A program made the translations under genes and the position numbers. Below are positions 7,248-36,253 of a DNA stretch of 64,000 bases, one piece after another. This DNA is from Minutocellus sp. GHC0000111 (taxonomy: Eukaryota). Every line of letters starts with the position of its first letter. The first letter of the stretch is position 1. The notes below the pieces were generated by a model that did no database searches, was not told the origin of the DNA, and worked only from the letters and a program-made list of their open reading frames with translations. The stretch spans positions 496,001-560,000 of the forward strand of contig OZ361260.1 of NCBI GenBank assembly GCA_977018835.1, in the 5' to 3' direction.

Positions 7248-7790
7248 GGTTGGGAGGGGGTATTCGATGATTCAATTCAAATGGCTGCTCGGAGAATGAG
7301 ATCAGATCGTCATCTTCGTCGTTCTTCGCGTCATTCTCAAGTTTCGCCGGCGGTGAACTTCGCCGGAGGGGGGATAAGTACTCCTCATATGTAATAGTTG
7401 AGTATTATGTATCAAGAAATGTCCATTAAGGAGTGTACATGGGGTCTGTTCGCTTCCCCGCCAAACAAAGACGGCCATCCCGCCAGAGTGGCCAGAGTCA
7501 GTCCAGAGTGACCGTTGCCGCTACCGCTGCTGCTGCCGCGTGCTTTGTCATACAAGCTGCGTGCTTTGACTGATAGGAGCAGTAGTCTGCCAGTGCGCGA
7601 GGCTTGATAGCTGGCACATCTTGTGCGCTTTTCGTGAGTCTTTAGATTATCGGCCCATCAGAGGCAGGTCTGACCAACTGACCGCCAACGGGTTACTGCC
7701 TCACACAACTCACAACCACTCCGCTCGCTCCCATACCGGGTCTCCGCTGGACAACGTAGCTACGTAGCTAATAGCTGCAACGCGCTCATA

Positions 7791-10700
7791 ATGAGTTCGG
7801 AAGACGCCGGAGGTCGTCCCGTTGGTCCAGAGCCGATGGATGTTGTGCAGAATGAGGGTGGTGGCGGCCAAAATGAGACAATGGACGCTGCTGGCGAAGA
7901 CTCCGTCCTCGACGTTACCTTTGAAACTGCCCACGGCGATATTGAGGAAGAAGAAGAAGATGAAGAAGAGATATCCGACATCGATCTCGACTGCTACCCG
8001 TACACCTTTTCGCCTCTTCTACTCTTTGCCGAGTCCAAGTATTTCGATAAGGGCCATTCCAACTACAATGCCGTGTCGCAATTCTTCAACCCGGTCCTAC
8101 GCAATCCCGACGACCCCGACGACGACATTGACATGCTCCACAACGTCGTCTACGATCGCAAGAACATGCTGTACGAGGATCTGCTCAACTACGTCATCGA
8201 CAACGAGTGTCTGGTAACGTGCTGCATCGAGGCGCACTTCACGGCCTTCAAGATGTTCCGGCAGGGCAAGACGCCGGTCTTGGTCCATTACGATCCCATG
8301 AGGAGGGAGTTGCAGATGGGCCAGGGACAGGACGCGAGAAGGTTTGCTATCTTTATGATGATGAAATGCAACTACGGCGATGGGCAGCACATTCAGGACA
8401 ACAAGGATCACTACATGGGCAATGCCACCAACAAGGTCCGGCAGTACATCTACCACACTTGGAAGAAGATCCACCAGGTCGATAGGAGCGGCGTGTATCT
8501 GAGCGGTATTCGGCTCAACCTGAACCGATACGTCCTATTCAATCAAAAGAATGGCTTCACTGCCATGTCGACACAGCTTACTGGCAATACGTGCTACTTC
8601 CAGACCTTTCTGTAAGTACATCATCGGTGTGTTGATGCAAAATCTATTTGTACCATATCAATCTATTGCATCTCTATCCATAAATCTCACATCGGTTTTC
8701 ATCCACTTGCACCTTTCAGCTTTGCCCTCCTTTGCAAGGCTGGCAAGATTAAGTTGAGCAAAGATGGCAAATCGGTTGACATAGAAGATGTTGAAAGAGT
8801 CGAAGAGATCGCGGCTCGGATCTCTCGCTTCCTCTTGGAGTTTTTCGTTGAGGAGACCGAAGGTGGCCGCGCCCTCCTCCGACCTTTGACGAACAGTAAT
8901 TTTGTTTGCGACTTCTACCGTTACAAGGAGGCACCGTACTTTGCGCTTCTGACTGACTTTCTCCAGCATAGCAAGTACGGTGGAGAAGTGCCGGACTATG
9001 AGAAGCAGTACCAGGACGTGATGCAGTATTACCAGGAGACCAAGTGCCTGCACAAGTACGGCAGATTCCTACTTGGAGGAGCCACCGCGTCCTCTCCCAA
9101 CACCAAGTCCTTGACTTTCGTCAACAACTTTGATGGAGCCGCTGCGCTATTGTCGCAGTCTGACTATTACAAGTATCGCTCTTCGTCGTTCATGTTTGGT
9201 TTCAACACAAAGATCATGAAAGATATCGGTGATTTTTGCGCCTTCAATTCGTTTCGGAAGAATCAGATGCTTCATTGCTACGAAGAGCTTCGTCCTATGG
9301 TAAATGGCAATGCCAGAGCCATTATGGAGGCCAAAGGCGCCAATGTGTATCGCGACTATTACTTCATGGGACAGTTCGAGGTGGGACAACAGGAACTGAT
9401 TGACCTCCACCATCACACCTTCCTGATCGATCTGTTGGCAGAGACGAACCTCGACGATAATTTGGAACGACGCGTGGTGGCTGCCAATCAAGTCATGCTC
9501 CAGCACACTCTCTTTTCGACGAGCAAGCGCCACAATTATGAGAAAATACTTTCAACTAGTGACTTTATGAAAACGAAGAAGTATCGCGAGTTTCAGAGGT
9601 ACTTCATGAGCATCAACTGGTTTGATACGTTTTGTGGTCTTGGGTTTGATCAAATTCCCATGAGTGAAAAGGAGGTCAATTGCCTCACCAAGACACTTTT
9701 CTACACGATGGAATTGATGAAATCTAAGCAACACCACACTGAGTATGACTTTGAAAAGGAGGCAGTGAACAATTTGGCGAGAACATCGCTTCGGCAATAT
9801 TCTGCACAGTACAATGACAGGTTCGACATGTCGAAAAAATACAAGGTCCATGCCAAGATCGGCCATGGATTCACTTACTCCAAGTACAATACGCTGATGC
9901 ACTTTCTCAACGTCGTTCAGAGTTACTGGAGGAATCCCGATCTGAGTAATATTTCCGTCTTTGGCAAGGACATTCGTACGCTCCTTGCGATTTCCTCTCA
10001 GAAGGTCTTCTTTGAGGATCACCACTGTGGTTTTTACCACTACGGTCCGTTCGAAATCCCTGCAGGGGGGTATTACTCAAATGGTCACTATTACGACCTT
10101 GCGGTCGCGCAGAGTCTTGATAAGTGCGCCCCAAGCGTGGCTACAGGCAACAAGGGCGTGAATGACCTCATAGTCACAGATAGGGTCTATGAATTCAATT
10201 ATCTCAAGGGAATCCTGGAAAGCGTCTTTGAGAGCGCCGACGGCGTCCAATTCAAGACGGACAATGAGGTTCTGAACCTATCCCTCCTATCTCTTATGCT
10301 TGATTTTGGATTGTATCAGCGCTTCGTTGGGTTGCTGAACCTCAAGTTTTTGAATGAATTGCAGCACAAGGGCGATACAAAGGAATTGCAGGTGGAAGTG
10401 GCCAACATGATCTATGAATTTGATCGGAAGAATTCCGCTGATTCCATCACTCGCAGCCGAGTCGAAGAGCTGATCTATGAGACGTCCTACAAATTCCTAG
10501 GTACGTTTCCTCAGGCAGTTGCTAGCTTGGTTTTTTTGCCTTGCTTTTAAAATCATCGTTTGGGCGCCGGGCCTACTGACCCGTATGTCTCTTGTCTAAC
10601 CATTTCCTTCTTCCACCTCAACACAAATAATATCACCACAGTCAATAAGAATCTGGACCTTCGAAGCCATCAGTTCAAGATCATTCGAATGCTCAACTCT

Positions 10701-13700
10701 GATCCTGACTACCAGAGCTACGTACTTCTCGTCAAGATTTACATGTCTCTCTGTAACATCAACAAGTCCGTGGAGGTGGATTACTACAAGGTGAAGTGCG
10801 ATGGCGAGTTCCGCATCATCATCCCCCGCACCTTCAGCAAGATTACCAGCGAATATCTCGAAGACGTTAGCGTCCGCTATACCTTTTCGGAGAGCGAGGG
10901 CATTATGAAATACGATGACTTGCCTGTCTTTGATTTGAGGCCTCATCAACCTGAGATTGAGTTGTTCAGGGTGCGCTTTGACCCCGCAACGGATGTTCAG
11001 GTAAGTGAGGTAGATAAATCCATACAAATGCAGAACAAACAATTCGTCTATGCGCTTCTCCCTTCCCCCATCGGGAAGCTTTGGTCGAATTTTCCTCACC
11101 ATCTTTGCTCCTTCTCGTATATGTTTTAATCCAAAAGTCCATGGTAAAATACATTGAGGTGGAGAATGCCTTTCGGGTGATGGATGAGTCCAAAGAGCAG
11201 TACATCATGTTCGTCTCAGATAATGCACTTCTCATTGACATTCCCGATGGCAACCGCCGTCGAATGAAGATGCAAGTCAACAACATTCCTGTCGAGATTG
11301 CTACCATCTTCTTCAACGAGGCAATCTCATTCGTTCCGTGCTTTAAGTACACCGACAGCGAGGACGTTATCTTGTTCACTTCTCGTAATTTCCATTTCCA
11401 CGTGGATAATGGAGGCCAATTCGATGTCAACTATTACGGTATGAGGCACGAATTGATTGAGCTATTGACCTCGATTGAAACCTACATCGACCTGAATGAC
11501 AATCATCAGTTCAAGGAATACAAACTCAGCGAGTTGCTTACAGAGTCCAAGACTGTGTTCTACTTCCCGGACTATTTGATGCAGGTGACGAATCGCCAGG
11601 AGCTCATCAACCTGATGGATTTGGCGATTCACTTACGCAACATTCCGTTCTTCCTGCTTACATTCTTCTACCTCAACCGAACCTCTATTGACATCGGCGT
11701 TGTCGAAAGAGGAAAGAACATTCTGGGACCATGGAGAGAGGCTGTCATTAATGGTCTCGGTGAAGGGAACATCCGCAAGAATAAGCACTACACAGAAATC
11801 TTCGAGAGGCAATTCTTTGATTTGAATCAGTACCAAAACCTTTCCCTTGATGACTTCGTTGATCAGCTTTGCGACAACTTTACCAAATATCAGCGATTCG
11901 TCGACGGCCAGTATCAGATCATCCCTAGGGCCAAGCAACGAGATTTCCTAAAGCGAATTATTTGTGCCGAGGAATGCTTTCACTTCAGCGAGGTCGGTAC
12001 GGGAAAAACAAAAGTTATTCTGCCTCTTTTGTGCCAAGCCTTCCTATCAAATAATGCAGAAGTGCTGAGGCAAGGCCAAGGATACGTTGATTGTCCTTGT
12101 CCCTGAGCATTTATTGACAGATGCCCGCGCTCAGGTGTATCGTTACTGTCTTAATCTGAATTTCGGAGAGAACTACCGCGTCTATGACGATATTTTTGCT
12201 CTCAAGCATGATAAGGTCAATTTTAGCTCATCTCGATCTACGCAGAACAAGGTTTCCAAACAGATCTTCATCACGTCTTTCAACTCGCTGAAGAAGGCTC
12301 TCACGGATGATGTTATTGGGAGAAAGATGAAAGCGCATCGACAACACGTCCTGATTGTAGCCGACGAGGTCGACGACTTCCTTGACCGCAACAAACTCGT
12401 CTTCAATATCTGCTCGAACAAGAACAATTCGTTTGAGAGGTCGACGCTCGATCTCTTCTATGAGACATCTCGCGCAGCATATTATGAAAAGGGTTGTCCG
12501 AGCATGCTCGTGGACTCTTCAGAAAATCCGAGGTATTGGGAGCAGCTCTACAACAAGATGCGAGCCATCTTTGTTGAAATCCAGGATGCCAGTAAGTCCA
12601 TCAATAAGAGCTTTGGTATTTTCAACGAGCACACCCTCCGTCACTGCGTGTCCAATATCTCCCATGACATTGAAGGTTACAAATCGCTCATCGCCCGTCC
12701 CTACGAGTCGGTCAATCGAGCAATGCCGGGTTCGTATTACTCTGATGTGGAGAGGACCATTTTCCTCACCTTTGTGATTCTCACAGAAGACATTGCCAAG
12801 TACGACGAACTGTTCCAAAACGAACGCAAATTCATAAGTTATGAGTACTGGAACGAACACTTCATTCACCAGTTGGACTTTGATGACCTCGTTTATGGTC
12901 ACGAAAGGCTGTCCGAGATCTGCGAGAAACATTCCGAGGCGAAGGATGGGCTAACCCGCTTCCTCTATGAGATCATATTGAGACGAATGGAAATTCGGGA
13001 CAAGTCGAGGTCTGTCAATTCTATTGATATAATTTTTAACTTTGACTGCATAGGCTTCACGGGCACTCCCTTTTTGGACAATTACCCAACGGCTTCCTAC
13101 ATCCGTCATGGACGAAAGGATGGTGAGTTGCATGTTTGTTAATGTGTTTTGTACCAACTTACCTCGGGGACACTACTCACCCAGGGAACACTACTCACCC
13201 ACCATGTCAAACCTCTCTCCCTCTTCACCCATCTTTCGCTAATTTCTCTCCTCTCATCGTCTCTAATACAGATATCCCCGATATGATTGATCGTCACTTC
13301 TACGCCTACACCAGTGAAAAGCTGCCCCAAGATGAATTCCAACGTCGATTTGCCTCGTTTCAGGGGCAAAACAATAATGTCATGGTGCGCTACGCTCCAT
13401 CAGACTTTATTCGTCAGAGTCCCGACGAAATGGCAACCTTAGAGACTATTTTTGAACGAGAGGAAGAAACGATGGGCAATATCAATGCTGATGGCCATGG
13501 GGCAACGGCCCCGGCGCGTGCGCCAGCTTTTAATGCCCTTGTGGATTTGTGTGGAGTTTTCAAGCGTTCATCAATCTTGGATGTTGCCAAGCGCATCAAG
13601 AAACATTTTGGCCCCGACAAATTCCATTACCTTTATCACATTGACCAAAAAGATAACAGCGACCGCGTCCTCTGCCTCAAGACGGGTAACGACATCCAGT

Positions 13701-15414
13701 ACGATGAAGAATTCTACAAGTATCTGTGCAAGACATATGGTGCCGACCTTCGCGATCACATTTTCTTCTTTGTTGACAATCGGAACGTCATCGGCAAGGA
13801 CATACCCTTCCAACTGATCTACCAGAAGCACTACGGCCGGGCCCTCTTTACCAAGAGCGTTGTGATCGCTCACGATGTTGACGATTTCAGCAAGATTTGG
13901 CAGGCCATGGGCCGCTCGAGGACGATGAATCAGACTGAATTCAGCATCTACAAGAGCGATATCCCGAGCGAGCTGCTGCAGCAGATGGGCGATGGAGGGG
14001 CGCAGGACATCAAGGCCCTTGATTTGACTCGCCTGCTCTACGTGTCAAATTGCGACCGGAAGATGGCAGGCAATATCTCATCCATCTACCTCTCCCTGAT
14101 TGCACTCTACAATCTCGCCAGGGAGAACTTTTACTATTCCGATAAGATTGTGAATGTCTTTTTGGATAAGATGGATGGTACCATCACGAACAAGGTTGTG
14201 GGACACGAGAATGAGCTTGTTCACGAAGTGCTTGGTAGATCTGTACAGGCCGGAATTCTGCAGCATATCCTTTCCGATAAGTTCAGTAAAAGCCCCGAGG
14301 CGACCGTGTCGGAGGAAAGTCTCGACCGCGAGAAGCTCGAGCTTCTCCTTCGGCAGATTGTGCAACAAAAGTACGAACAACGGTCGCGATCGGGAGACAT
14401 CTTTGACGATCTCATCCTCTTTTTATCGGGTGAACAAAAGAGTTTGATGGAGATTAGCTACACCAAGCAGCACCAAAAGCAGAAGCAAAAACAACAGAAC
14501 AAGAACCAGGACAGCGATGCCATGGGACTTTTTGACGAAAGACATCGTTTCAGCATCAAGCTATCTAGCTCGTCGTATTTTGAAGATTCTCGAGAAGGCC
14601 TTGAAGATCAAACCAAAAGCATGCTGCTATTGGTGAGAAGCGCCAAGCCATCAACGTGTACCCCACAATGCAGTTTCTGTACTCGCACCACATCCGCCAA
14701 GAGTACATTGACGACAAAGTCAGGGGAATTATTCATGCGAAGCGATCGTTTGACGAGTACTACGATGATTTCATCTTGAGTGCGAGGCAAATGAAGCAAG
14801 ACCTTGAGCAAGAGCAGGCATTAAGTAATAGCACAGCAGGTGGTTCCAACGGACATAATTCCATCCAGGATAGCATTCAAGTCAATATCAACCACGTCCG
14901 ACAAAATCCCCAGTATACCATCGCCGCGATCGAGCCTGGAATTTACGTGATTGGCATGAAGGACCAATTCAACAGCTTTGATCTTCGCATGCAACGGTTG
15001 AGGAAGGATGTCCACTACATCGTTGACGAGATGGGTTTCGTACTATTTGATAGAACGGCCAGTCAAAGCGTTGACGAATTTGGCCCCTACTACATCGAGC
15101 AATACATCATTATGGAGCTACTGTCCAAGCACGAGGTGGCGCAGAATGTGCTGGATTACTACCGCGACCACAAGGAGACCCTTCAGCGCGGTCTCAACTC
15201 CTACGACGAGAAGCAGGGCAAGGGTTTTGTTTGCTGGCGTTTCCTCATCAACGAAACGGCCAAGGCAATGGCTGCTGCCGCAGCAGCGGCTGAAGCTTCC
15301 AATGGTGCCGATGCCGCTCCTAGCAGAGGTGCTTCGCCGGGTGCGCGAGAAGACGAAAGGCAGAACGATAGCGACATGGAAAGCGTCAGCAAGAAGATAC
15401 GAAAGGAGCTTTGA
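7791..15414 (+). CDS. Very large (~2350 aa) protein: N-terminal cysteine-protease-like domain plus SF2-like P-loop ATPase (DUF3638-like); exons 7791-8611, 8720-10500, 10642-11000, 11138-13122, 13272-15414; frame breaks at ~12068 and ~14632
   Basis: Four GT-AG introns join the ORFs in frame. Motifs: SEVGTGKT (I), IVLVPEHL (Ia), VADEVDD (II), GFTGT (III), QAMGRSR (VI); N-terminal AHF...YDP...QLTGNTC. Two junctions need a frameshift or an implausibly short intron. Confidence 0.75.
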
Positions 15415-23358: not shown

Positions 23359-23724
23359 GTTGCTTTTTATTTACACGTAAGTAGGGAAATGTTTGAGGTG
23401 GTATCGAGTGAGAGTACCTAGGTACGCTAGTCCTATGTAGGGTCGTCTGACCCTACTTTTGCGAGCACGCGACCAACGTCGAGTCTTTTTGAACTGCTGT
23501 CTGTTCCGCCCTTGGTTTCTGTGTGGGAGGTCGGGGCAGTTGTCATGTCACGGCACTCACGTGGCAGTTAGCAGACGCGCTTTTGACGCTTCGCGGGTTG
23601 TCACTTAGCAACTTCGCCGAATATCCGGTTCCAAACTTCGCCGAAGTGGCTTACTCGACTCACTCGACTCATCACTCCTCAATCAAGTCAAGTCATCAGA
23701 TTCAATTCCGGAAGCAGATGACGG

Positions 23725-23855
23725 AACTTTGCAACATGGATCCGATAAGGCAGAGGATAACTTTGCAACGATGGATCCGAAAAAGCAGAGGATATTAATA
23801 CGACGCCAGAGGAACTTTGCAACGATGGATCCGAAAAGGCAAAGGATACGACGCC
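23725..23855. repeat. Three copies of a ~35-bp unit AACTTTGCAAC(G)ATGGATCCGA(T/A)AA(G/A)GCA(G/A)AGGATA
   Basis: Copies start at 23725, 23759 and 23813. Copies 2 and 3 are followed by a shared ACGACGCC. Confidence 0.9.
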
Positions 23856-23914
23856 GAACCCGTTGTTGTTACATGCATTATTGTTCGGCGCCACTACATA
23901 TTGCAATTCTCACG

Positions 23915-25035
23915 ATGACGACGGCGCCCCTATCGCCACAACCTGTTGGCTTTGCCTTCGCTTTGACCATCACAACTTTCAACATGCTCGCATCCGTCCA
24001 TAGATCAATGCACAGCGATCATCCTGAAGGCCCCACAAATGGTCAAGATGATTGGAGGGAGTCCGATAGGACCGAATGGTGGAAACCTCGTGCAGAGCAG
24101 GTGGCAAGATTCGTAGCCAACGAGTTGTCCTCATCTGACGTTGTTCTACTTCAGGAATGGTGGACTCGCTCGGAGTTTGAGGATCTATTCGATTCGCACA
24201 CACGGCATTTATTCCATCGAGCATCGGAAAGGCGACCAGGCACTGCCCGTGGTGGCATGGAAAGAGAGGATGGAATGGCAGTGTTGGTCAAACGAACTGG
24301 CAAAATAAAGCTCTGTAAATCTCTGAGGGTAAAGACGGGCCCACAGCGAATCGCTCAGATTGTAACCTGCAGAGAGAAAGAGGGGGACAAGAGGCATGTC
24401 ATTATTGGGAACTCTCATCTAAGCTTTCCAGGAGGGCCATGTTCAATCGCGAATGCACGTCGGCAAGCCTACGAAGCACATTTGATAGCGAGGGCAGTTG
24501 CGAGGGGGGCCGGTCTTTATCATCGCTCGCAGAACACCAAAGTCACCTACAACTAATTGCTGGCGACTTCAACTCCAACTCATGTGCGCTGGCCGCACAA
24601 TCCCTCGAACAGAAGCACGACTTTGTAAACTGCATGTCCGCATCCGCTTTGCAGACCCTCTCGGCATCTATCGGAGGGCGAACCGAACTTGGTGTGACAC
24701 ATTTGAACCATCTTGGGCAGCAAGTAAGCGTCGATCATATCATGGCTAATTTCATTCATCAAGACGGCACATCAAGACGAAGCTGCGGCGAAGCCCTCCA
24801 AAAGATGGGTTATTTTGACAATGGAGGAACTCGGTTATTGAACTGCCGAAAGCGTAGCATACGGCTCGACGGTGACGATATTATATCAGATCATAGACCG
24901 GTGACAGCACAATTTGTCTGGCCATCACGCAGCTCTGCCGCCGCAGGAACAAAGAGACGAACGATCACCAACCAACACCCGTCCTTGGACACAAATACAA
25001 CGCTTCATTTCTTGCAATCTTATTGGGATAGTTAG
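23915..25035 (+). CDS. Endonuclease/exonuclease/phosphatase (EEP) family hydrolase, frameshifted at G6 run 24504-24509
   Basis: TTFNML, LLQE and NSHLSF lie in the first frame; GDFN, VDHI and SDHRPV lie in the second. Confidence 0.85.
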
Positions 25036-25895: not shown

Positions 25896-26528
25896 GGCTG
25901 GTGCCGCGCAGAGTGGAAACACGACGGACAGCGTACAGACCAAAATTCCAAAAGATACGAAACGTGCATGTCAAGCACGTGAAACGAACGAGAACACAAA
26001 AGAAGAGTACGTCTGATGATGCCACCACCTATCGCTGGCTTTCACTCCCACTCATTGACTTAAGAGGGCGCTGTCCATAACTTTTAGGAAGCCCCCAAAA
26101 AGCGTGTTTTGTGCCGTTTTTTCTTCGCACCATCGCCAAAGTTAGCACTCCAACGTGACAATGGGCTCCTCATCGAAGGCCGCCGCTCTCCACAGTGGCG
26201 AAGAGTCATCGACGTTCCTTTCAGCATTAAGTCGGAAATCCCTCCAGGAACACTTGGTTCAGAGGAACTTCGATGAATCAACTCTCCCTCAGAAACACAG
26301 CAGTCGACGCACACATCATCGTCGGATCGACCGAAATTAGTCTCGGCCGACGCACAACCAGCATTGGTGGTGCTGGTGGGAAGATGTCTTGAAGTTTTGC
26401 TGTTGGGAGGTAAGGGGATATTTGTTTGGGGTGTTTTTGCACGTCTCCCTCATTTGGGGTTCTTTTTGTAAGGTTCTCATCGAAAAGCGTGTCTTGCGCC
26501 AGAACCGACACAAAACAAAAAAACAACC

Positions 26529-29057
26529 ATGGAAACATCACGTGCTGACGCCAAGGAGGCAATCCTCTCACTCTTGCTCTCATTCCCAGACGACGTCAGA
26601 TGCACTTGCTACACTGTTGATGAGCTTGTCCGTGTCTTGATGCGCGGTGGTGTGTCGCCGAGCTTAGAGATCTCTCTTGTTCGATCATCTCTTCAACACG
26701 TCCCAACACGACACGAGGTCAACATCCAACGACGACGTCCAGAGAAAACATCAGGCCTTGACGTTGCAAAGCCCTTCTGCCGCTTCTCCAGAACAGCCGA
26801 CAACGCCAGCCCACGCTCTCAACGCAATGGCAAGCGATCACTGCCGACCACACCTGAAAATTGCTTCCAGGACGATGAAAAGCATGGGCCCCATCTCAAC
26901 GCGATGCTGAAATGTCACTCCGACAAGAATTCTTCGGGCGGTCGGTCATCTGCTCCCACCGCCAACGCCACCGATCGTCCCAACATCACCGGCGTGCAGC
27001 TCAACGGCAAAAGAATTGTGGTTGAGATGAAGCAGCTGTGTGATTTCGTGCAGAATCTCCACCGATCGTGCGGCAATCTGCATCTCTCGGCCGAGCCAGT
27101 TCGGCGTGGATTCGGCGTCACATTTGAATGGCGATGCGACAGATGCAACCAACCTTTTTCTTTTTGCACTTGGATCGGCCAGAGGTCAGAAGTTGTGTGC
27201 CCCGGCAGAAAGCATTCTAGAAGTCAGGCTGGAATGAACTTGGAGCTGATGGAGGCAGCGGAAGATGAGGCCATGCACGCAAGTCGCTTCATGAATTTCT
27301 GCACGAAGGCCGACATCGTCCATCCGACCGAAAAGAGTGCCCGACAGGTGGAAAAGAAATGCAGAGCAGCGGCTGTTGAAGCAGCTGATGAAATCATTGA
27401 CGAGAACAGGGCAAAAGCATGTGCCGCTAGCAGCAAGACTGTTGAGTTTGAACAAGGCGGCGAGATGCACACGGCGGCGGTGGTTGCGGTGGCCCAAGAC
27501 GGCAGCGCCCTCAAACGCGACTACGGCCATTGCTACACTGGCTCTGCTGCAGCGGCATTTGCCGTAGACAAGGAAACTGGCCTTGTTGTTGACAAGGGAA
27601 TCTCTCAGGCAAGCTGCCACTGTTGCGTGAGAGCCTGCAATGCAAGATTGAGGGAGAGGCGGGAAGCCGGCAATCCAACAACGCCGAGTGAGCTCAAAAA
27701 CATGAGCAAGGATGAGACACTGGCCCTGTACGACCATGATGGCTTCTGCTGTCGCAACTCTTCCTGCTCCCCCGGTGTGGCAGAGGAGCATCTGGCCGAG
27801 AATGTTGGACGGAATCTTCTGGTCGACGATGAAGGAAGCGTGCAGGCGTGTCCTCTTTTCGTTGAGAAGCACGTTGCCGATGGCGACAGCAAAGGCATTG
27901 CTAGGGCAGCAGCCGCTCAGGAAGACATAGTAGGTGATGAGTTGGCTTCTGGTGTTGAGCTTTGCCGTGACTTTAATCATCTGAGCAATTCAATTGACTC
28001 AGGCTTTCGAAAAGTATGCAAAGGAGTTGAAAATTTTAATGCCATCCCCCGACCACGCATCAATCGGATGAAACAGGACATTTCGAAGATTGCTGATCGG
28101 CACAAGCACAGCGTTCTCGATCAGCCCGATGGTGCTGTGTCCGAGGAGGAAAAACAAAGTCATCTGGCCCTCCTTCAGAAAGAACTCCAGTCCGTCGTTC
28201 GTCACCAATGTGGCATTCACACTTTTTGCACCACCAACACGTGTGATTGGATTCGCCTCAGCATTGCTCATCCTGATTGGAGTGATGGCAAGCTCGATGA
28301 GGAATGGAGCTCGGGGAATCAATTCGATGGCGACATATTGGAGATTAGTGACGACACGATTCGCAAGATGACGCTTGAAATAACCAAGAGAATCAACAAG
28401 AATACTGCCAACTCCAACTGCAAGAAGGAATCTACCACCAGCGTCGAACAGCTCAACGGGATGGTGACGAAGTTCACGATGGGGAAAAGGCCGAATTTGA
28501 CTGCTTCAGACGCCTACCCAAATGCAACAAGTAGAGCCGCTGGCCACAAGTCACTGGGTACGGAATTCAATGAGCGAGTTCTTGGAAAGTTGGGATCGAG
28601 GGATTCTCCTACCCGAAAAGATGGATTCGATGCAATTGACCGGAAGCTCGAGGGCGACCTTGCGCGTAAGCGCACCGATGAGTACAAAAAGAGCAAGAGC
28701 GACAGCAAGCGCCTTCGAGCAGCCTTGCGAAACAGAAGCGAGAAAGACGACAAGGACTATGTGTACAAGAAGAACAGGGCCCTAGCTGCTGGTAAGGCGA
28801 AACCAGCAAAGCCTGGCCGCAAGAAGAAGATTGACCAGCAGTGTCAGAAATGCAAGCAGCTTGGCCACACTCGGGCTGAATGTCAATGCGACGATGCTGA
28901 CGACGTTGTCGTTTACGCCGGAAAGAAGCGCAGAAGCCCAGGCAGCAACAAGAAATCTGCAAGAAATAATAAGAAAGCTAAGACAAACTTCGGTGCATCG
29001 GCAAATGATGTTAGCTCTTGGATGCCGGCGATAATGAGAGAAAATGGCAGCTTGTAA
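26529..29057 (+). CDS. Kolobok DDE transposase (Mutator-like transposase domain) with C-terminal CCHC knuckle, 842 aa
   Basis: AQDGSALKR (D1), ETGLVVD..SCHCC...H..C.RN, VADGDSK (D2), DFNH, TTSVEQLNG (E); CQKCKQLGHTRAEC knuckle; lies inside the TIRs. Confidence 0.88.
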   Translation: METSRADAKEAILSLLLSFPDDVRCTCYTVDELVRVLMRGGVSPSLEISLVRSSLQHVPTRHEVNIQRRRPEKTSGLDVAKPFCRFSRTADNASPRSQRNGKRSLPTTPENCFQDDEKHGPHLNAMLKCHSDKNSSGGRSSAPTANATDRPNITGVQLNGKRIVVEMKQLCDFVQNLHRSCGNLHLSAEPVRRGFGVTFEWRCDRCNQPFSFCTWIGQRSEVVCPGRKHSRSQAGMNLELMEAAEDEAMHASRFMNFCTKADIVHPTEKSARQVEKKCRAAAVEAADEIIDENRAKACAASSKTVEFEQGGEMHTAAVVAVAQDGSALKRDYGHCYTGSAAAAFAVDKETGLVVDKGISQASCHCCVRACNARLRERREAGNPTTPSELKNMSKDETLALYDHDGFCCRNSSCSPGVAEEHLAENVGRNLLVDDEGSVQACPLFVEKHVADGDSKGIARAAAAQEDIVGDELASGVELCRDFNHLSNSIDSGFRKVCKGVENFNAIPRPRINRMKQDISKIADRHKHSVLDQPDGAVSEEEKQSHLALLQKELQSVVRHQCGIHTFCTTNTCDWIRLSIAHPDWSDGKLDEEWSSGNQFDGDILEISDDTIRKMTLEITKRINKNTANSNCKKESTTSVEQLNGMVTKFTMGKRPNLTASDAYPNATSRAAGHKSLGTEFNERVLGKLGSRDSPTRKDGFDAIDRKLEGDLARKRTDEYKKSKSDSKRLRAALRNRSEKDDKDYVYKKNRALAAGKAKPAKPGRKKKIDQQCQKCKQLGHTRAECQCDDADDVVVYAGKKRRSPGSNKKSARNNKKAKTNFGASANDVSSWMPAIMRENGSL

Positions 29058-29161
29058 ACACGTGTAAAATATTTTATCACTGTAAATAAAAATGGATTTA
29101 TTGTGTGCTGCTACTCACGTGCTACGCACATTCTTGTTATCTGCATGTGTTGAGGTAATGA

Positions 29162-30391
29162 TTATGCATTTTCCTCTTCTTCTTCCTCTTCATCTTGATG
29201 ACCAGGGATGAATCCAACATATCGTTCACCTTTATCATTTGGATAAATGAACCTAATGCAAAAGACTAGACAGGTTGGCAAGGGCTTCCGATCAAGCCAA
29301 CCTCTCACATGATACACCTCAGTTGCATAGTACCAATACAGCATGTTCCTCTTCAAATTATTTGCCATGGCTTCGACTGGCATGGTGGTTGCGTAGTATT
29401 TGTCAGCGATATCCTCCAGGTCCTCCTCCGTCGGCACCAGCATTTCTTCGCAGACGCATTTCTGAAAGAAGAGTGTGCCGTACATTGAGCAGCTTCGGTT
29501 GGCGGCAGTGCAGCAAGCAGGGGGTATTGGTGGCCTCTCTCTGGTCTCGTCCCAATTACCGAATGTGTCTGCCTCCGGCGCTGCCGTCGGATCATCGTCG
29601 GCTTCCTCACAAACGGCCGCAACAAGAGCATCCGTGTCCGATCTGATCGCTGCTGATGGCCCACCATCTACCTGCAGAAGTTGGCCCATTCCAACAATAT
29701 CAAAATCAACTAGTCCAATCCCAGCAGTAGAGTGTATGTCATCATATGGAGCCACATGCCATCGGTGGAACTTTGTCAATTTGATCACATGGCCCTGTTG
29801 TAGACTTCGGGCCTTTTCGGTAATTGTCAGGGCAACACGAGCGACGATAAGCTTTCCGCTTCCATCAAGCAAAGTAAGCGATGTGGTGTTGAAAGGTCGG
29901 CCGTGCGCAGCAAGAGCCGATCCAATATCGATCCGTTTCCCATGAAGTTGAAATATAGGGAAGAATTCAGGTCCGGCGTCAAACATGGGATCTTGCAATT
30001 GATCGACGATGCCGACCGTCAGCCTCAACTTCACATCAGCCACGGACAGGTTGGTAACTACGAGGCCGGGCCGCTCAGCAGCGACATCAATATCATCCCG
30101 AACATGATACTTATCAGCGCGAGCCTCGACTGCTTTGACAAGATGTTGAAGTGCATGGCCGACGCCGGGATTGTTCCATAATTCTCGTCCTTGTCCGTTC
30201 GGGTCGTTCTCCAACGTGACGGCGAGGCCCTCCAGTATCTCGGTAACGGCGTCTTTCGCTTTGTCCTCCGCCTTCTCTTTCTTCTTGTCAACAGGCAAAA
30301 TCGGGCGACCGGAGTTATCTGTCTTGAGTTTCCGCAACCGCGTATCTGCGTTGTGGGCCGGGCCAGCACTATTATCAGCGCTGCGCTTCAT
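29162..30391 (-). CDS. KolX-like accessory protein (P2X7 C-terminal-like domain), possible OB-fold in the middle, 409 aa
   Basis: C-terminal RNMLYWYYA..GWLDRKPLPTCLVFCIRFIYPNDKGERYVGF matches the KolX/P2X7-C R..LP.C.V..IR...P....Y.GF pattern and is preceded by a Cys cluster; convergent with the transposase. Confidence 0.78.
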   Translation of the reverse strand: MKRSADNSAGPAHNADTRLRKLKTDNSGRPILPVDKKKEKAEDKAKDAVTEILEGLAVTLENDPNGQGRELWNNPGVGHALQHLVKAVEARADKYHVRDDIDVAAERPGLVVTNLSVADVKLRLTVGIVDQLQDPMFDAGPEFFPIFQLHGKRIDIGSALAAHGRPFNTTSLTLLDGSGKLIVARVALTITEKARSLQQGHVIKLTKFHRWHVAPYDDIHSTAGIGLVDFDIVGMGQLLQVDGGPSAAIRSDTDALVAAVCEEADDDPTAAPEADTFGNWDETRERPPIPPACCTAANRSCSMYGTLFFQKCVCEEMLVPTEEDLEDIADKYYATTMPVEAMANNLKRNMLYWYYATEVYHVRGWLDRKPLPTCLVFCIRFIYPNDKGERYVGFIPGHQDEEEEEEENA

Positions 30392-30584
30392 CGTAATGAA
30401 GAGGGGGCAGAGCGGCGATTCTCATGGTGGGGTCGAGTTTTTGTCATGCTTCGCTCGTCATAAGAAATAAGAATAAGGGGGATTAAAAACGGGGAAAATT
30501 ATGGACAGCGCCCTCTTAAGGTATCGTCCTTAGTACAAAACGAGGAATAAATAAAGATGCAAATGATTCTCAATTTTCACTCAC

Positions 30585-32129: not shown

Positions 32130-32329
32130 NNNNNNNNNNNNNNNNNNNNNNNNNNNNNNNNNNNNNNNNNNNNNNNNNNNNNNNNNNNNNNNNNNNNNNN
32201 NNNNNNNNNNNNNNNNNNNNNNNNNNNNNNNNNNNNNNNNNNNNNNNNNNNNNNNNNNNNNNNNNNNNNNNNNNNNNNNNNNNNNNNNNNNNNNNNNNNN
32301 NNNNNNNNNNNNNNNNNNNNNNNNNNNNN
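32130..32329. other. Assembly gap (200 N)
   Basis: Run of N. Confidence 1.
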
Positions 32330-32553
32330 CGGATCAATACCTGGCTGTCTTTGCTTTTGGCTCTTCGTCTCCACGTAGATACGGTAAAATGACTAGACCT
32401 GCCACATCAAATCGAGCCAAAGAGAAAGAGATCCGAGCTCATCGATTGAACCCCATCGCTCCAGTGCTGTGATGTGCCCAAAATCAAAGAAATCATCAAG
32501 GACAAAGCGGAACAAAGCAGGATTGATGTTGAATTGCAATTCCTGAAGGAACG

Positions 32554-33507
32554 TTAGGGCCGATTTTGTGATTCCAAGACAGGTGTTCTCGTATCCTGTC
32601 TGGAGGAGATACGAACATTCAAAGGTGAAAGGTCGGCACTTGTATTATATCTTTCAATGTAATCGCCGATAGCCTGCCGAATCCCCGTATCGAGGTGGAC
32701 ACAAAAGGACGGAGGGCCAGCATTTTGGCGCAAACCCAATTCATCCGACGTGAATATAGATCTACACAATGAACGACATAAGTCTATCGCTTTCTCGAAG
32801 ATACTCGGCCCCACCTGGGCGAGATGCATGATGTCCAATCTCTAGCAGACTTTGAGGCACGGCATATTAGCACCGCCAAAAACATCAAGAAAGGGAAAGA
32901 CAGAACAAACGCGTTGACACAATGCGCAAGGCGCACTGCCATCACGAGCCTCGCACATGTGCACATTATCATCCTTGGAAATAACGTCCAAACGGCGTAG
33001 AGGCTGCAGTGCTCGAGATTCAAATGCGCCACACAGTGAGCAAATCATTCGCCGAAAGAGTTGTGTATTGATGTCAGTTGACATAATAGCAGCGCTATTG
33101 GTTTGATCAGAGAGGCAGTGCCATGGCCCAAACAACTCAAAATAACGATCGGGGAGAATGAAACCAATTTTGACGCATCTCAGTGTTGGGAAACACAAGA
33201 GGAACGGAACAATCTTGCTGACGGTCAGAGAACAAACTTCCATCATGGCATTGCCAAAAGAATGTTTTACGTCATCGAGAGTCCTCTTGGGCTTGCAAAG
33301 GCAAAGAATGTTGACTTCAGTGACGTTGGAGAATCTCCGACCCGTAGGAAAATCCATCTCCAAAGGGGAAAAGACGTTGACCACTTCGATGTGATCGGCC
33401 ACATTGCGGCGAAATACGCGGCCGATTCGGAGGCTAGATCGAACATCGGCATAGGGGAGAAAATTCAGCGTTGATCCCCATACCACGGGCGGGAGGGAGG
33501 GTGCCAT
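32554..33507 (-). pseudogene. Mirror copy of the F-box-like gene, with in-frame TAG at 32844-32842
   Basis: Translation identical to 34957-35910. Confidence 0.6.
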
Positions 33508-33705
33508 CTGTCTGCGCCCCACCGGTCGGTGAGATTCGATCAACTTAGAACGCACCGCCAATGCTCAAATGATGAGGATACCAGGAGGAAGCATCTTCCA
33601 CGGTGCCCAGAGAAAAGTGGAGCATTCCACGATGTGGAAGCTCACAATCTGAACTGAAAGCTAAACGAATAGCAATCCAATAATGCCAGCACAACCCGTC
33701 GATTT

Positions 33706-34260
33706 TTACACACCGCCCTTGTGGTAGCATTGGCCCATCCCCATCCGCATGACGGCCTCGGCACCGCCAAAGGTCTTGAGCAGACCCGGCGGGAGGAATC
33801 CGTTCTCGCACGCACACCGCCACGTGTTGCTGTTGGTGGTGCCCAAGTCGTCGTCATTTTCATCCTCCTCCTCCTCTTTGTTTTTGCTTCCAGAAGCTGA
33901 ATCTTCAGCTTGATTTTCGGATGTCTTTGCGCCGAGGGCATCGGTCTCCTCTCGGCTTGTATTATCATCACCACCACCATCATCATCATGATCATCCCCA
34001 TTCCCGGACGTGCTCGGCGGTACCTTGTCAGCGCTGACGTGTTGTACGTCTCTGTAGGCGTCGTTCAGTATCTAGGTCTCCACCGTCACTACCGGTACTC
34101 CATCGTCACCCATGAAGAAGAGGATGACGACGAGGGCAGTGGCACCGAGGGCGTAGCGAATGATGGGGTGGATGTAAGCGATGGGCAGCCAATTGTCGAG
34201 GGGCAGGACGGCGACGGCGAGGGAGCCGTACCATAGGACGGAGTCCAGCGATACCGCCAT
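33706..34260 (-). pseudogene. Small membrane-anchored protein ending WRCACENGFLPPGLLKTFGGAEAVMRMGMGQCYHK, with in-frame TAG at 34074-34072; 5'-truncated copy at 34390-34758 (+)
   Basis: MAVSLDSVLW...VET*ILNDAYRD...CYHKGGV reads in one frame across a single TAG; N-terminal hydrophobic segments, acidic linker and Cys-motif tail. The ORF track does not join it. Confidence 0.6.
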
Positions 34261-34956
34261 GGTTGGAAGGTCGGGTTGGTAACCAAACGGTTGTGCCGTT
34301 GTGCCGGTGCCAGTCAGTGGCGTCAGTGGCCGTGGGCGCGTGGGCGTCCAGATGACTTCGCCGATAAAACTCCGCCGATAGATCTGAGATAGATACTGAA
34401 CGACGCCTACAGAGACGTACAACACGTCAGCGCTGACAAGGTACCGCCGAGCACGTCCGGGAATGGGGATGATCATGATGATGATGGTGGTGGTGATGAT
34501 AATACAAGCCGAGAGGAGACCGATGCCCTCGGCGCAAAGACATCCGAAAATCAAGCTGAAGATTCAGCTTCTGGAAGCAAAAACAAAGAGGAGGAGGAGG
34601 ATGAAAATGACGACGACTTGGGCACCACCAACAGCAACACGTGGCGGTGTGCGTGCGAGAACGGATTCCTCCCGCCGGGTCTGCTCAAGACCTTTGGCGG
34701 TGCCGAGGCCGTCATGCGGATGGGGATGGGCCAATGCTACCACAAGGGCGGTGTGTAAAAATCGACGGGTTGTGCTGGCATTATTGGATTGCTATTCGTT
34801 TAGCTTTCAGTTCAGATTGTGAGCTTCCACATCGTGGAATGCTCCACTTTTCTCTGGGCACCGTGGAAGATGCTTCCTCCTGGTATCCTCATCATTTGAG
34901 CATTGGCGGTGCGTTCTAAGTTGATCGAATCTCACCGACCGGTGGGGCGCAGACAG

Positions 34957-35910
34957 ATGGCACCCTCCCTCCCGCCCGTGGTATGGGGATCAACGCTGAA
35001 TTTTCTCCCCTATGCCGATGTTCGATCTAGCCTCCGAATCGGCCGCGTATTTCGCCGCAATGTGGCCGATCACATCGAAGTGGTCAACGTCTTTTCCCCT
35101 TTGGAGATGGATTTTCCTACGGGTCGGAGATTCTCCAACGTCACTGAAGTCAACATTCTTTGCCTTTGCAAGCCCAAGAGGACTCTCGATGACGTAAAAC
35201 ATTCTTTTGGCAATGCCATGATGGAAGTTTGTTCTCTGACCGTCAGCAAGATTGTTCCGTTCCTCTTGTGTTTCCCAACACTGAGATGCGTCAAAATTGG
35301 TTTCATTCTCCCCGATCGTTATTTTGAGTTGTTTGGGCCATGGCACTGCCTCTCTGATCAAACCAATAGCGCTGCTATTATGTCAACTGACATCAATACA
35401 CAACTCTTTCGGCGAATGATTTGCTCACTGTGTGGCGCATTTGAATCTCGAGCACTGCAGCCTCTACGCCGTTTGGACGTTATTTCCAAGGATGATAATG
35501 TGCACATGTGCGAGGCTCGTGATGGCAGTGCGCCTTGCGCATTGTGTCAACGCGTTTGTTCTGTCTTTCCCTTTCTTGATGTTTTTGGCGGTGCTAATAT
35601 GCCGTGCCTCAAAGTCTGCTAGAGATTGGACATCATGCATCTCGCCCAGGTGGGGCCGAGTATCTTCGAGAAAGCGATAGACTTATGTCGTTCATTGTGT
35701 AGATCTATATTCACGTCGGATGAATTGGGTTTGCGCCAAAATGCTGGCCCTCCGTCCTTTTGTGTCCACCTCGATACGGGGATTCGGCAGGCTATCGGCG
35801 ATTACATTGAAAGATATAATACAAGTGCCGACCTTTCACCTTTGAATGTTCGTATCTCCTCCAGACAGGATACGAGAACACCTGTCTTGGAATCACAAAA
35901 TCGGCCCTAA
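34957..35910 (+). pseudogene. Hypothetical protein with F-box-like N-terminus; in-frame TAG at 35620-35622
   Basis: LPPVVWGSTLNFLPYADVRS start. ORFs 34903-35622 and 35626-35910 share a frame (CLKVC*RLDIM). Confidence 0.6.
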
Positions 35911-36253
35911 CGTTCCTTCAGGAATTGCAATTCAACATCAATCCTGCTTTGTTCCGCTTTGTCCTTGATGATTTCTTTGATTTTGGGCACATCACAGCAC
36001 TGGAGCGATGGGGTTCAATCGATGAGCTCGGATCTCTTTCTCTTTGGCTCGATTTGATGTGGCAGGTCTAGTCATTTTACCGTATCTACGTGGAGACGAA
36101 GAGCCAAAAGCAAAGACAGCCAGGTATTGATCCGGCTTATCTTCATTTTAAAAAGCTTTTATGTTACGTTTAAAGTCTATATCTGTGTGCGTCGGAGTGT
36201 ACGTATCGATTTTCCTCTGCTCTCTCTCTCTTTCTATTGTGCTTCATTCAAAA

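What the first reader, a model, noticed from the sequence alone, without database searches (positions are those of the whole stretch)
26100..28320. TpA-depleted, Tyr->Cys/His-rewritten transposase: signature of a RIP-like TpA->TpG/CpA hypermutation system
Seen (hand counts): 26521-28320 has only ~14 TA dinucleotides in 1800 nt (~8/kb), with none across ~26670-27215. A host exon (8761-9360) has ~24 in 600 nt (~40/kb). The first ~660 transposase residues contain 4 Tyr but ~29 Cys. Cys/His sit where Tyr reads naturally, e.g. NCFQDDEKHGPHL, KCHS, LCDF, RKHSR, IVHPT, ACPLFVEKHVADGDSK and DRHKHS. The last ~180 residues (5 Tyr) and the KolX ORF of the same element (~11 Tyr) look normal. TAY->TGY (Cys) and TAY->CAY (His) are the two strand outcomes of A->G at TpA. 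Such changes cannot turn a sense codon into a stop, which explains why a heavily altered ORF stays open. Surviving TAs are mostly CTAG, TTAA, TTAG or CTAC/GTAG, which hints at a context preference. Inference: a repeat-targeted adenine-deamination or mutagenic genome-defence process, analogous to fungal RIP (C->T) but opposite in direction. I do not know of a characterised mechanism for this in diatoms.
Basis: partly seen in the sequence, partly recalled or inferred. Interest (0 to 1): 0.9.

Follow-up and report, generated by a model that had tools for sequence, protein, structure and literature searches.

The report
TA-erasing hypermutation of a diatom transposon
Copies of a young DNA transposon in a probable diatom have had the A in TAT/TAC changed to G on either strand, mostly in the element's first 2.2 kb, likely by a natural DNA adenine deaminase; in my searches such a process was in print only for one other alga.

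Summary
The counts are right: 14 TA in 26521-28320 and a 553-nt TA-free gap. The stretch is the left half of a 4.45-kb Kolobok DNA transposon (TTAA flanks, probably tens to ~100 copies) in a probable diatom. Polarity is TA to TG/CA: a relative's 18 Tyr align to 9 Cys, 5 His and 4 Tyr here, and sibling copies took Cys or His largely independently. The motif is 5'-TAY-3' on either strand. It covers 23 of 28 DNA differences, and sites with TAR on both strands are undepleted. Repetition alone is not the trigger. The equally repeated right half is spared in 14 of 15 listed copies; one copy has 27 A:T>G:C changes there, 24 at TAY. Best mechanism (0.6): a TadA/ADAT2-type deaminase acting on DNA in a locally marked domain. 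TAY is the preferred motif of TadA-derived base editors. No enzyme was identified and expression was not measured. The closest known case is TpA hypermutation of integrated viruses in Bigelowiella natans (2026 preprint). This scan noted the same signature, including TAY, on other DNA.

The parts
26064..30515 (+). Kolobok-type DNA transposon, 4452 bp, multi-copy
   Evidence: Inverted repeat I7; TTAA on both sides; contig loose ends at both borders and depth 47-493 times the left flank in 4 runs (depth is not a copy number)
26060..26063 (.). Left TTAA target-site duplication
   Evidence: Sequence
30516..30519 (.). Right TTAA target-site duplication
   Evidence: Sequence
26064..26084 (+). Left terminal inverted repeat, starts 5'-GA (RR)
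30495..30515 (-). Right terminal inverted repeat, 20 of 21 nt matching
26100..28330 (.). Hypermutated tract: TAY 6.6/kb against 41-47/kb outside; YTAR sites at background density
   Evidence: 25 of 28 window-G/C versus contig-A/T rows lie here
26529..29057 (+). DDE transposase, 842 aa, open frame; likely triad D324, D453 or D451, E640; DxxH at 481-484
   Evidence: PF20700 E 5.5e-20; alignments; motif positions; triad assignment inferred
29162..30391 (-). ORF2, 409 aa, KolX-like accessory protein; spared here and in 13 of 14 other listed copies, saturated in P0032
   Evidence: weak P2RX7_C match (best E 0.055) in 3 of 13 family members, none for the window protein
27808..28022 (.). 215-nt segment present here but missing from a large share of copies (428-aa truncated transposase); both subtypes carry the TA hits
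   Evidence: Joint 27807-28023 in 4 of 4 runs; five 428-aa proteins ending at that codon

Best explanation
Copies of this Kolobok transposon carry A-to-G changes at 5'-TAY-3' on both strands, largely independently and mostly in the first 2.2 kb, likely made after insertion by a host TadA/ADAT2-type deaminase that would turn DNA adenine into inosine. Shown: the spectrum, polarity, TAY motif, both strands, copy-to-copy differences, and confinement to part of the element. Inferred steps: (1) A TA step is hit on one strand, replication fixes TG or CA, and the motif is destroyed, so Tyr splits into Cys or His and Ile(ATA) into Met or Thr. (2) The target is a locally marked domain, not a sequence or repeat status. 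It usually covers the transposase promoter and 5' two-thirds and occasionally includes ORF2. My preferred reading (about 0.4) is silenced chromatin, with the ORF2 transcription unit protected. Single-stranded DNA exposed by transposase transcription (0.3) and small-RNA guidance to the left half (0.3) are close. (3) The change cannot create stop codons, so it degrades by missense. The mobile progenitor probably survived an earlier round, since three Tyr>His/Cys changes are fixed in all covering copies. A defensive role is plausible but untested.
For: Polarity: P0005 has 18 aligned Tyr, which are Cys 9, His 5, Tyr 4 here; the 4 kept are surviving CTAC/GTAC sites. DNA: of 28 shown rows where the window has G/C and contigs have A/T, 23 are TAY, 4 AAY, 1 TAA; 15 are + strand and 13 are - strand. 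Survivors: YTAR 4.1/kb against 3.6-4.9 elsewhere, RTAY 1.4 against 10.5-12.4. ORF2 copy P0032: 27 of 27 changes are A:T>G:C, hitting 24 of 41 TAY, 1 of 15 TAR and 2 of 334 other non-synonymous A sites; 13 other copies have 21 changes in all, 1 at TAY. Strand rule: Tyr after a pyrimidine gives Cys 29, His 5; after a purine Cys 35, His 27 (p 0.006). Independence: 165 of 253 site pairs are four-gamete incompatible. TadA-derived editors are most efficient at TAY (PMC10879117, section 7). Same spectrum arose de novo in B. natans mutation-accumulation lines.
Against: No enzyme was found and no genome was available to search. The TAY match is to an engineered enzyme working on single-stranded DNA. 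4 of 28 rows are AAY, a WA-like tail that also fits polymerase eta. Incompatibility is below the shuffled mean (192 +/- 9.6; 5 of 1000 shuffles as low), so part of the pattern is shared, and gene conversion between copies could also scramble sites. Only 40 of 85 difference rows and 15-17 copy proteins per ORF were seen. Most copy evidence is protein-level. Expression and methylation were not measured.
Confidence: 0.6

Rival explanations
1. Error-prone patch synthesis by a polymerase-eta-like enzyme, as in the A:T phase of immunoglobulin somatic hypermutation, acting over about 2 kb from the transposase promoter.
For: All 28 rows have a 5' W. Hits decline from the left end: non-Tyr states at Tyr columns are 98 of 132, 36 of 98 and 2 of 32 along the protein. 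Pol eta is the A/T mutator at WA (PMC11507097, passages and reference titles).
Against: 27 of 27 changes in P0032 are transitions and only 1 of 101 AA sites is hit. The 3'-pyrimidine rule is strict. Pol eta spectra include A>T and A>C and accompanying C:G changes (recalled).
Confidence: 0.13
2. A methyltransferase marks TAY adenines (6mA or another modification) in silenced DNA, and the modified base deaminates or is miscopied, giving A>G.
For: It would give pure transitions in a fixed motif on both strands and in domains (inference).
Against: Known symmetric eukaryotic 6mA is at ApT and in active genes (recalled), whereas TAC is hit as often as TAT (11 against 12-13). Near-saturation in young copies needs far more than spontaneous decay.
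Confidence: 0.12
3. A-to-I editing of double-stranded transposon RNA, copied back into DNA by reverse transcription and gene conversion.
For: Both strands, 5' T preference, and a tract limited to part of a gene. Some linkage remains among sites.
Against: TAG, the context ADARs favour (recalled), is spared: 0 of 7 in P0032. The element is a DNA transposon. The tract begins about 430 nt upstream of the ATG. The B. natans target was single-copy and silent.
Confidence: 0.07
4. Reverse polarity: CpG decay from an ancestral CG (giving TG or CA), or fungal-type RIP turning CA/TG into TA in the other copies.
For: Cys/His and Met/Thr splits are also one step from Arg (CGY) and Thr (ACG). Five shown rows are CpG>TpG/CpA-type changes in the window copy.
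Against: Relatives at 46-84% identity have Tyr/Ile at most of these columns. These processes raise TA, but it is depleted here. CG is at 1.01 of background. In ORF2, 14 of 15 copies have TA and one lacks it.
Confidence: 0.02
5. Intrinsic composition or selection (avoiding its own TTAA target), or an assembly artefact.
For: The family is Cys-rich.
Against: TTAA survives while TAY is lost. Relatives have 22-31 Tyr against 9 here. Alternative alleles at the same sites appear in contigs of 4 runs from 2 studies; these runs may include the window's own source.
Confidence: 0.02

Closest known systems
TpA hypermutation of integrated NCLDV and virophage DNA in Bigelowiella natans (Mettrop et al., bioRxiv 10.64898/2026.01.13.699255; read parts 1-3 of 5 and term passages; supplements closed)
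   Same: Nearly pure A:T>G:C, at TpA, giving TpG and CpA, local to foreign DNA, apparently switched on and off, ADAT2-like enzyme proposed. The paper also finds DDE and RT domains enriched among TpA-poor genes.
   Different: Here the host is a probable diatom, the target a young multi-copy DNA transposon, the motif resolved to TAY with a minor AAY tail, and only half of the element is hit. The main text I searched has no 'diatom', 'TAY' or 'trinucleotide'; Fig. 2B or Table S2 may show flanking bases.
Fungal repeat-induced point mutation (RIP)
   Same: Dense, one-directional, context-specific transitions in transposons on both strands.
   Different: RIP is C>T, raises TpA, makes stops and is triggered by duplication (recalled; passage). 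Here A>G, no stops, and equally repeated DNA is spared.
TadA-derived adenine base editors (ABE) and ADAT2/3
   Same: A>G in DNA with highest efficiency at TAY (PMC10879117, section 7).
   Different: ABEs are engineered and Cas9-guided; no natural enzyme was identified here.
Kolobok DNA transposons, Kol0 group (PMC9587614, passages)
   Same: TTAA duplication, RR..YY termini, DDE transposase with DxxH, second ORF; Kolobok is reported from a diatom.
   Different: KolX identity of ORF2 rests on a weak match; lineage not placed on a tree.

Membership tests
B. natans-type TpA hypermutation | Almost only A:T>G:C transitions | tested here: met
   27 of 27 in P0032; G>A and C>T make 46 of 74 places in run X1 against the window
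B. natans-type TpA hypermutation | Mutated A preceded by T, on both strands | tested here: met
   24 of 28 DNA rows (15 +, 13 - overall) and 25 of 27 in P0032; 4 of 28 are AAY, so less strict than the paper's 'all'
B. natans-type TpA hypermutation | Local to foreign or mobile DNA, host genes spared | tested here: met
   Only bins 26001 and 27001 have TAY/TAR near 0.5; all other 1-kb bins are 0.91 or more; one window only
B. natans-type TpA hypermutation | About 1000-fold raised de novo rate, in a subset of lines | not testable with these tools
   On/off state among ORF2 copies (1 of 15) is only an analogy
B. natans-type TpA hypermutation | Target transcriptionally silent | not tested
   No RNA coverage was obtained
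Fungal RIP | C:G>T:A direction | tested here: not met
   Polarity is TA>TG/CA
Fungal RIP | Triggered by duplication as such | tested here: not met
   Right half (same family) and the 1745-nt perfect inverted repeat are undepleted; that repeat adjoins an N gap and may be recent or an assembly product
TadA/ADAT2-type DNA adenine deamination | TAY preference | tested here: met
TadA/ADAT2-type DNA adenine deamination | Enzyme present and active on DNA | not testable with these tools
   No genome held; no deaminase family among 20 window ORFs scanned
Kolobok | TTAA target-site duplication | tested here: met
Kolobok | 5'-RR and YY-3' termini with TIR | tested here: met
   GA...TC, 20 of 21 nt
Kolobok | DDE transposase with C/DxxH and zinc fingers | tested here: met
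   QDG 323, ADGD 450, DFNH 481, HQCGIH 559, EQLN 640, conserved in relatives; Pfam labels it Mutator-like
Kolobok Kol0 | KolX with P2X7 ballast fold | tested here: inconclusive
   PF20478 best E 0.055 in 3 of 13 members; no PDB sequence hit; model pLDDT 38.7 unusable

The most novel reading that the evidence does not exclude
Diatoms, and perhaps the SAR lineage generally, have a natural DNA adenine deaminase with the TadA TAY signature that is switched on domain by domain against mobile DNA. This family, with many near-identical copies hit on one half and occasionally on both, shows that targeting depends on local chromatin or RNA state and not on repetition. It would be a natural counterpart of engineered adenine base editors and an A>G mirror of AID/APOBEC and RIP.
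Probability: 0.45. Interest if true: 0.9.

Novelty: new variant of a known kind. Interest (0 to 1): 0.7.

Why it matters
The preprint I read names a single reported case of A-deamination of DNA (amphioxus ADAT2), and base editors had to be engineered from a tRNA enzyme. A TAY-specific A>G process in diatoms would extend the single B. natans report to a second major algal group and to transposons. This element is a good test system: many young copies give replicate outcomes from one known starting sequence, with a spared half as an internal control. It also matters for annotation, since such copies keep open frames and look intact.

Tried and rejected
No whole genome is held, so genome-wide scans and an enzyme search were impossible.

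Metagenome scan: 3 distant loci (22-47% identity) out of 118 candidate stretches, none TA-depleted (rho 0.56-1.05); not informative.

ORF2: no Atlas hit, no PDB sequence hit, low-confidence model, so no fold search was run.

Host amine oxidase search: close relatives were unnamed.

RNA coverage of the two halves was not obtained, so the transcription-based targeting ideas stay open.

Strand bias was not significant (28 of 46, p 0.18; 35 of 62, p 0.37).

The 'TA-explained' column tally (41 of 68 columns in aa 1-530) is permissive and is not relied on.

The Tyr-column gradient is biased low beyond about aa 470, where P0005 ends; DNA TAY density supports the same contrast independently.

Rejected: TTAA avoidance, CpG decay or RIP in reverse, artefact (see rivals).

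Literature searches that found no diatom or TAY report: (open-licence library only; for some only the top 20 were listed).

Full report
Observation. All hand counts hold: 14 TA in 26521-28320, none in 26670-27215, 24 in the control exon, and 4 Tyr with 29 Cys in the first 660 residues. The 553-nt TA-free gap is the longest in the window. Three of the seven quoted motifs (RKHSR, IVHPT, ACPLFVEKHVADGDSK) are ordinary conserved Cys/His, and the family is natively Cys-rich.

The element. It spans 26064-30515, with 21-nt terminal inverted repeats, GA...TC ends and TTAA on both sides. It encodes an 842-aa DDE transposase (PF20700) and a convergent 409-aa ORF2. These features meet the Kolobok definition in PMC9587614 (passages). 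KolX identity of ORF2 is only weakly supported. The transposase cluster has 170 members, many of them fragments, and the main ORF2 cluster has 71. Contig depth is 47-493 times the flank in four runs. Tens to about 100 copies is a fair reading, not a measurement. That the copies share one assembly is inferred from matching multi-megabase contig lengths. A large share of copies lack 27808-28022. The host is probably a diatom: an ORF2 relative at 64% identity clusters with a Minutocellus polymorphus record. Close host-gene relatives were unnamed.

Direction. The relative P0005 has 18 aligned Tyr; here 9 are Cys, 5 His, 4 Tyr and none anything else. Relatives at 46-56% identity mostly agree at the variable columns. 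Sibling copies split Cys/His at the same Tyr (for example column 185: 6 Cys, 5 His) and Met/Thr at the same Ile. These are the two strand outcomes of one TA. CpG decay from CG could mimic such splits, but outgroups carry Tyr and Ile, TA is lost, and CG is at background.

Motif. I saw 40 of 85 difference rows. Of these, 28 have G/C in the window against A/T in contigs: 23 TAY, 4 AAY, 1 TAA, with 25 in the left tract. The other 12 rows are 5 CpG-type changes (2 left, 3 right), 4 alternative hits at the same TA, 1 transversion and 2 flank variants. Contexts were read from the window's own neighbours, which may be mutated. Survivors agree: TA with a purine after it on both strands (YTAR) is at background, 4.1/kb against 3.6-4.9, while RTAY falls to 1.4 from 10.5-12.4. 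The rule predicts that Tyr after a pyrimidine gives mostly Cys. It does: 29 Cys and 5 His, against 35 and 27 after a purine (p 0.006).

Independence. Among 23 chosen sites in 15 copies, 165 of 253 pairs are four-gamete incompatible. A clean tree gives none and shuffles give 192 +/- 9.6. Hits are therefore mostly independent, with some sharing, and gene conversion is not excluded. Both alleles occur in full-length and in deleted copies. Three Tyr>His/Cys changes (62, 119, 370) are fixed in every covering copy, so the progenitor probably carried earlier hits and still multiplied.

Targeting. The right half has normal TAY density, and the window's ORF2 protein is on record letter for letter on 22 contigs. 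Of 14 other listed ORF2 copies (15 listed of 40 read of 71), 13 carry 21 changes of mixed kinds. One, P0032, carries 27, all A:T>G:C, hitting 24 of 41 TAY, 1 of 15 TAR and 2 of 334 other sites. ORF2 is therefore targetable but usually spared. Repetition cannot be the trigger, unlike RIP; the perfect inverted repeat at 32330-36134 is also untouched. A second subfamily (P0006) shows scattered Tyr>Cys/His, Ile>Met/Thr and Asn>Asp changes up to about aa 575 but keeps 19 shared Tyr. Its ORF2 relative P0057 looks unhit by eye. Whether silencing, transcription or small RNAs set the tract is open, since expression was not measured.

Mechanism. Pure transitions with a 5'-T, 3'-Y rule fit adenine deamination by a TadA/ADAT2-fold enzyme; TadA-derived editors work best at TAY (PMC10879117, section 7 read). 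I put this at 0.6. Polymerase eta (0.13), adenine modification (0.12) and RNA editing copied back to DNA (0.07) remain. No enzyme was identified.

Known. Mettrop et al. (bioRxiv 10.64898/2026.01.13.699255; parts 1-3 of 5 read; supplements closed) report 230 of 231 de novo changes in two viral inserts of B. natans as A>G/T>C, all at TpA, and propose ADAT2. The lead to this paper came from earlier scan notes. Four such notes describe the signature in other diatom-like DNA, two of them with TAY; these are unchecked AI notes, and the TAY ones were seen after my own counts. My searches found no paper on diatoms or on the TAY rule. Verdict: a real process, a new variant of a kind described once, valuable here for its replicate copies and its internal spared control. 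Interest 0.7.

Noticed in passing
window 32330-34074 and 34390-36134: A 1745-nt inverted duplication, 100% identical, 315 nt apart, next to an N gap (32130-32329). Not TAY-depleted. May be recent or an assembly product.
   Followed up: partly
window 27808-28022: 215-nt deletion in a large share of copies removes the second catalytic Asp region and DxxH, giving a 428-aa product: a likely non-autonomous subtype.
   Followed up: partly
P0006: Apparent chimera: the first ~140 residues resemble this family, the rest a second subfamily (P0023/P0007 type); partly TA-hit.
   Followed up: partly
P0247: Distant transposase relative with 0 Tyr in 319 aa and 6.6% Cys; possibly a saturated copy from another genome.
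   Followed up: no
P0051: ORF2 variant with two neighbouring changes (Ile219Met, Thr222Ala) at sites classed as TAC: a possible short processive patch.
   Followed up: no
window 26633, 26651, 28410, 29531, 30365: Five CpG>TpG/CpA-type differences in the window copy, in both halves; hints that CpG methylation does not mark out the TA tract (small numbers; polarity checked only at 28410).
   Followed up: partly
window 23609-25035: Endonuclease/exonuclease/phosphatase-like gene in two overlapping frames, with three 36-nt repeats at 23724-23848; intron or frameshift not resolved; not TAY-depleted.
   Followed up: no
window 7674-14779: Run of long Tyr-rich ORFs on the + strand; the one scanned (8616-10547) has no Pfam match.
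   Followed up: no
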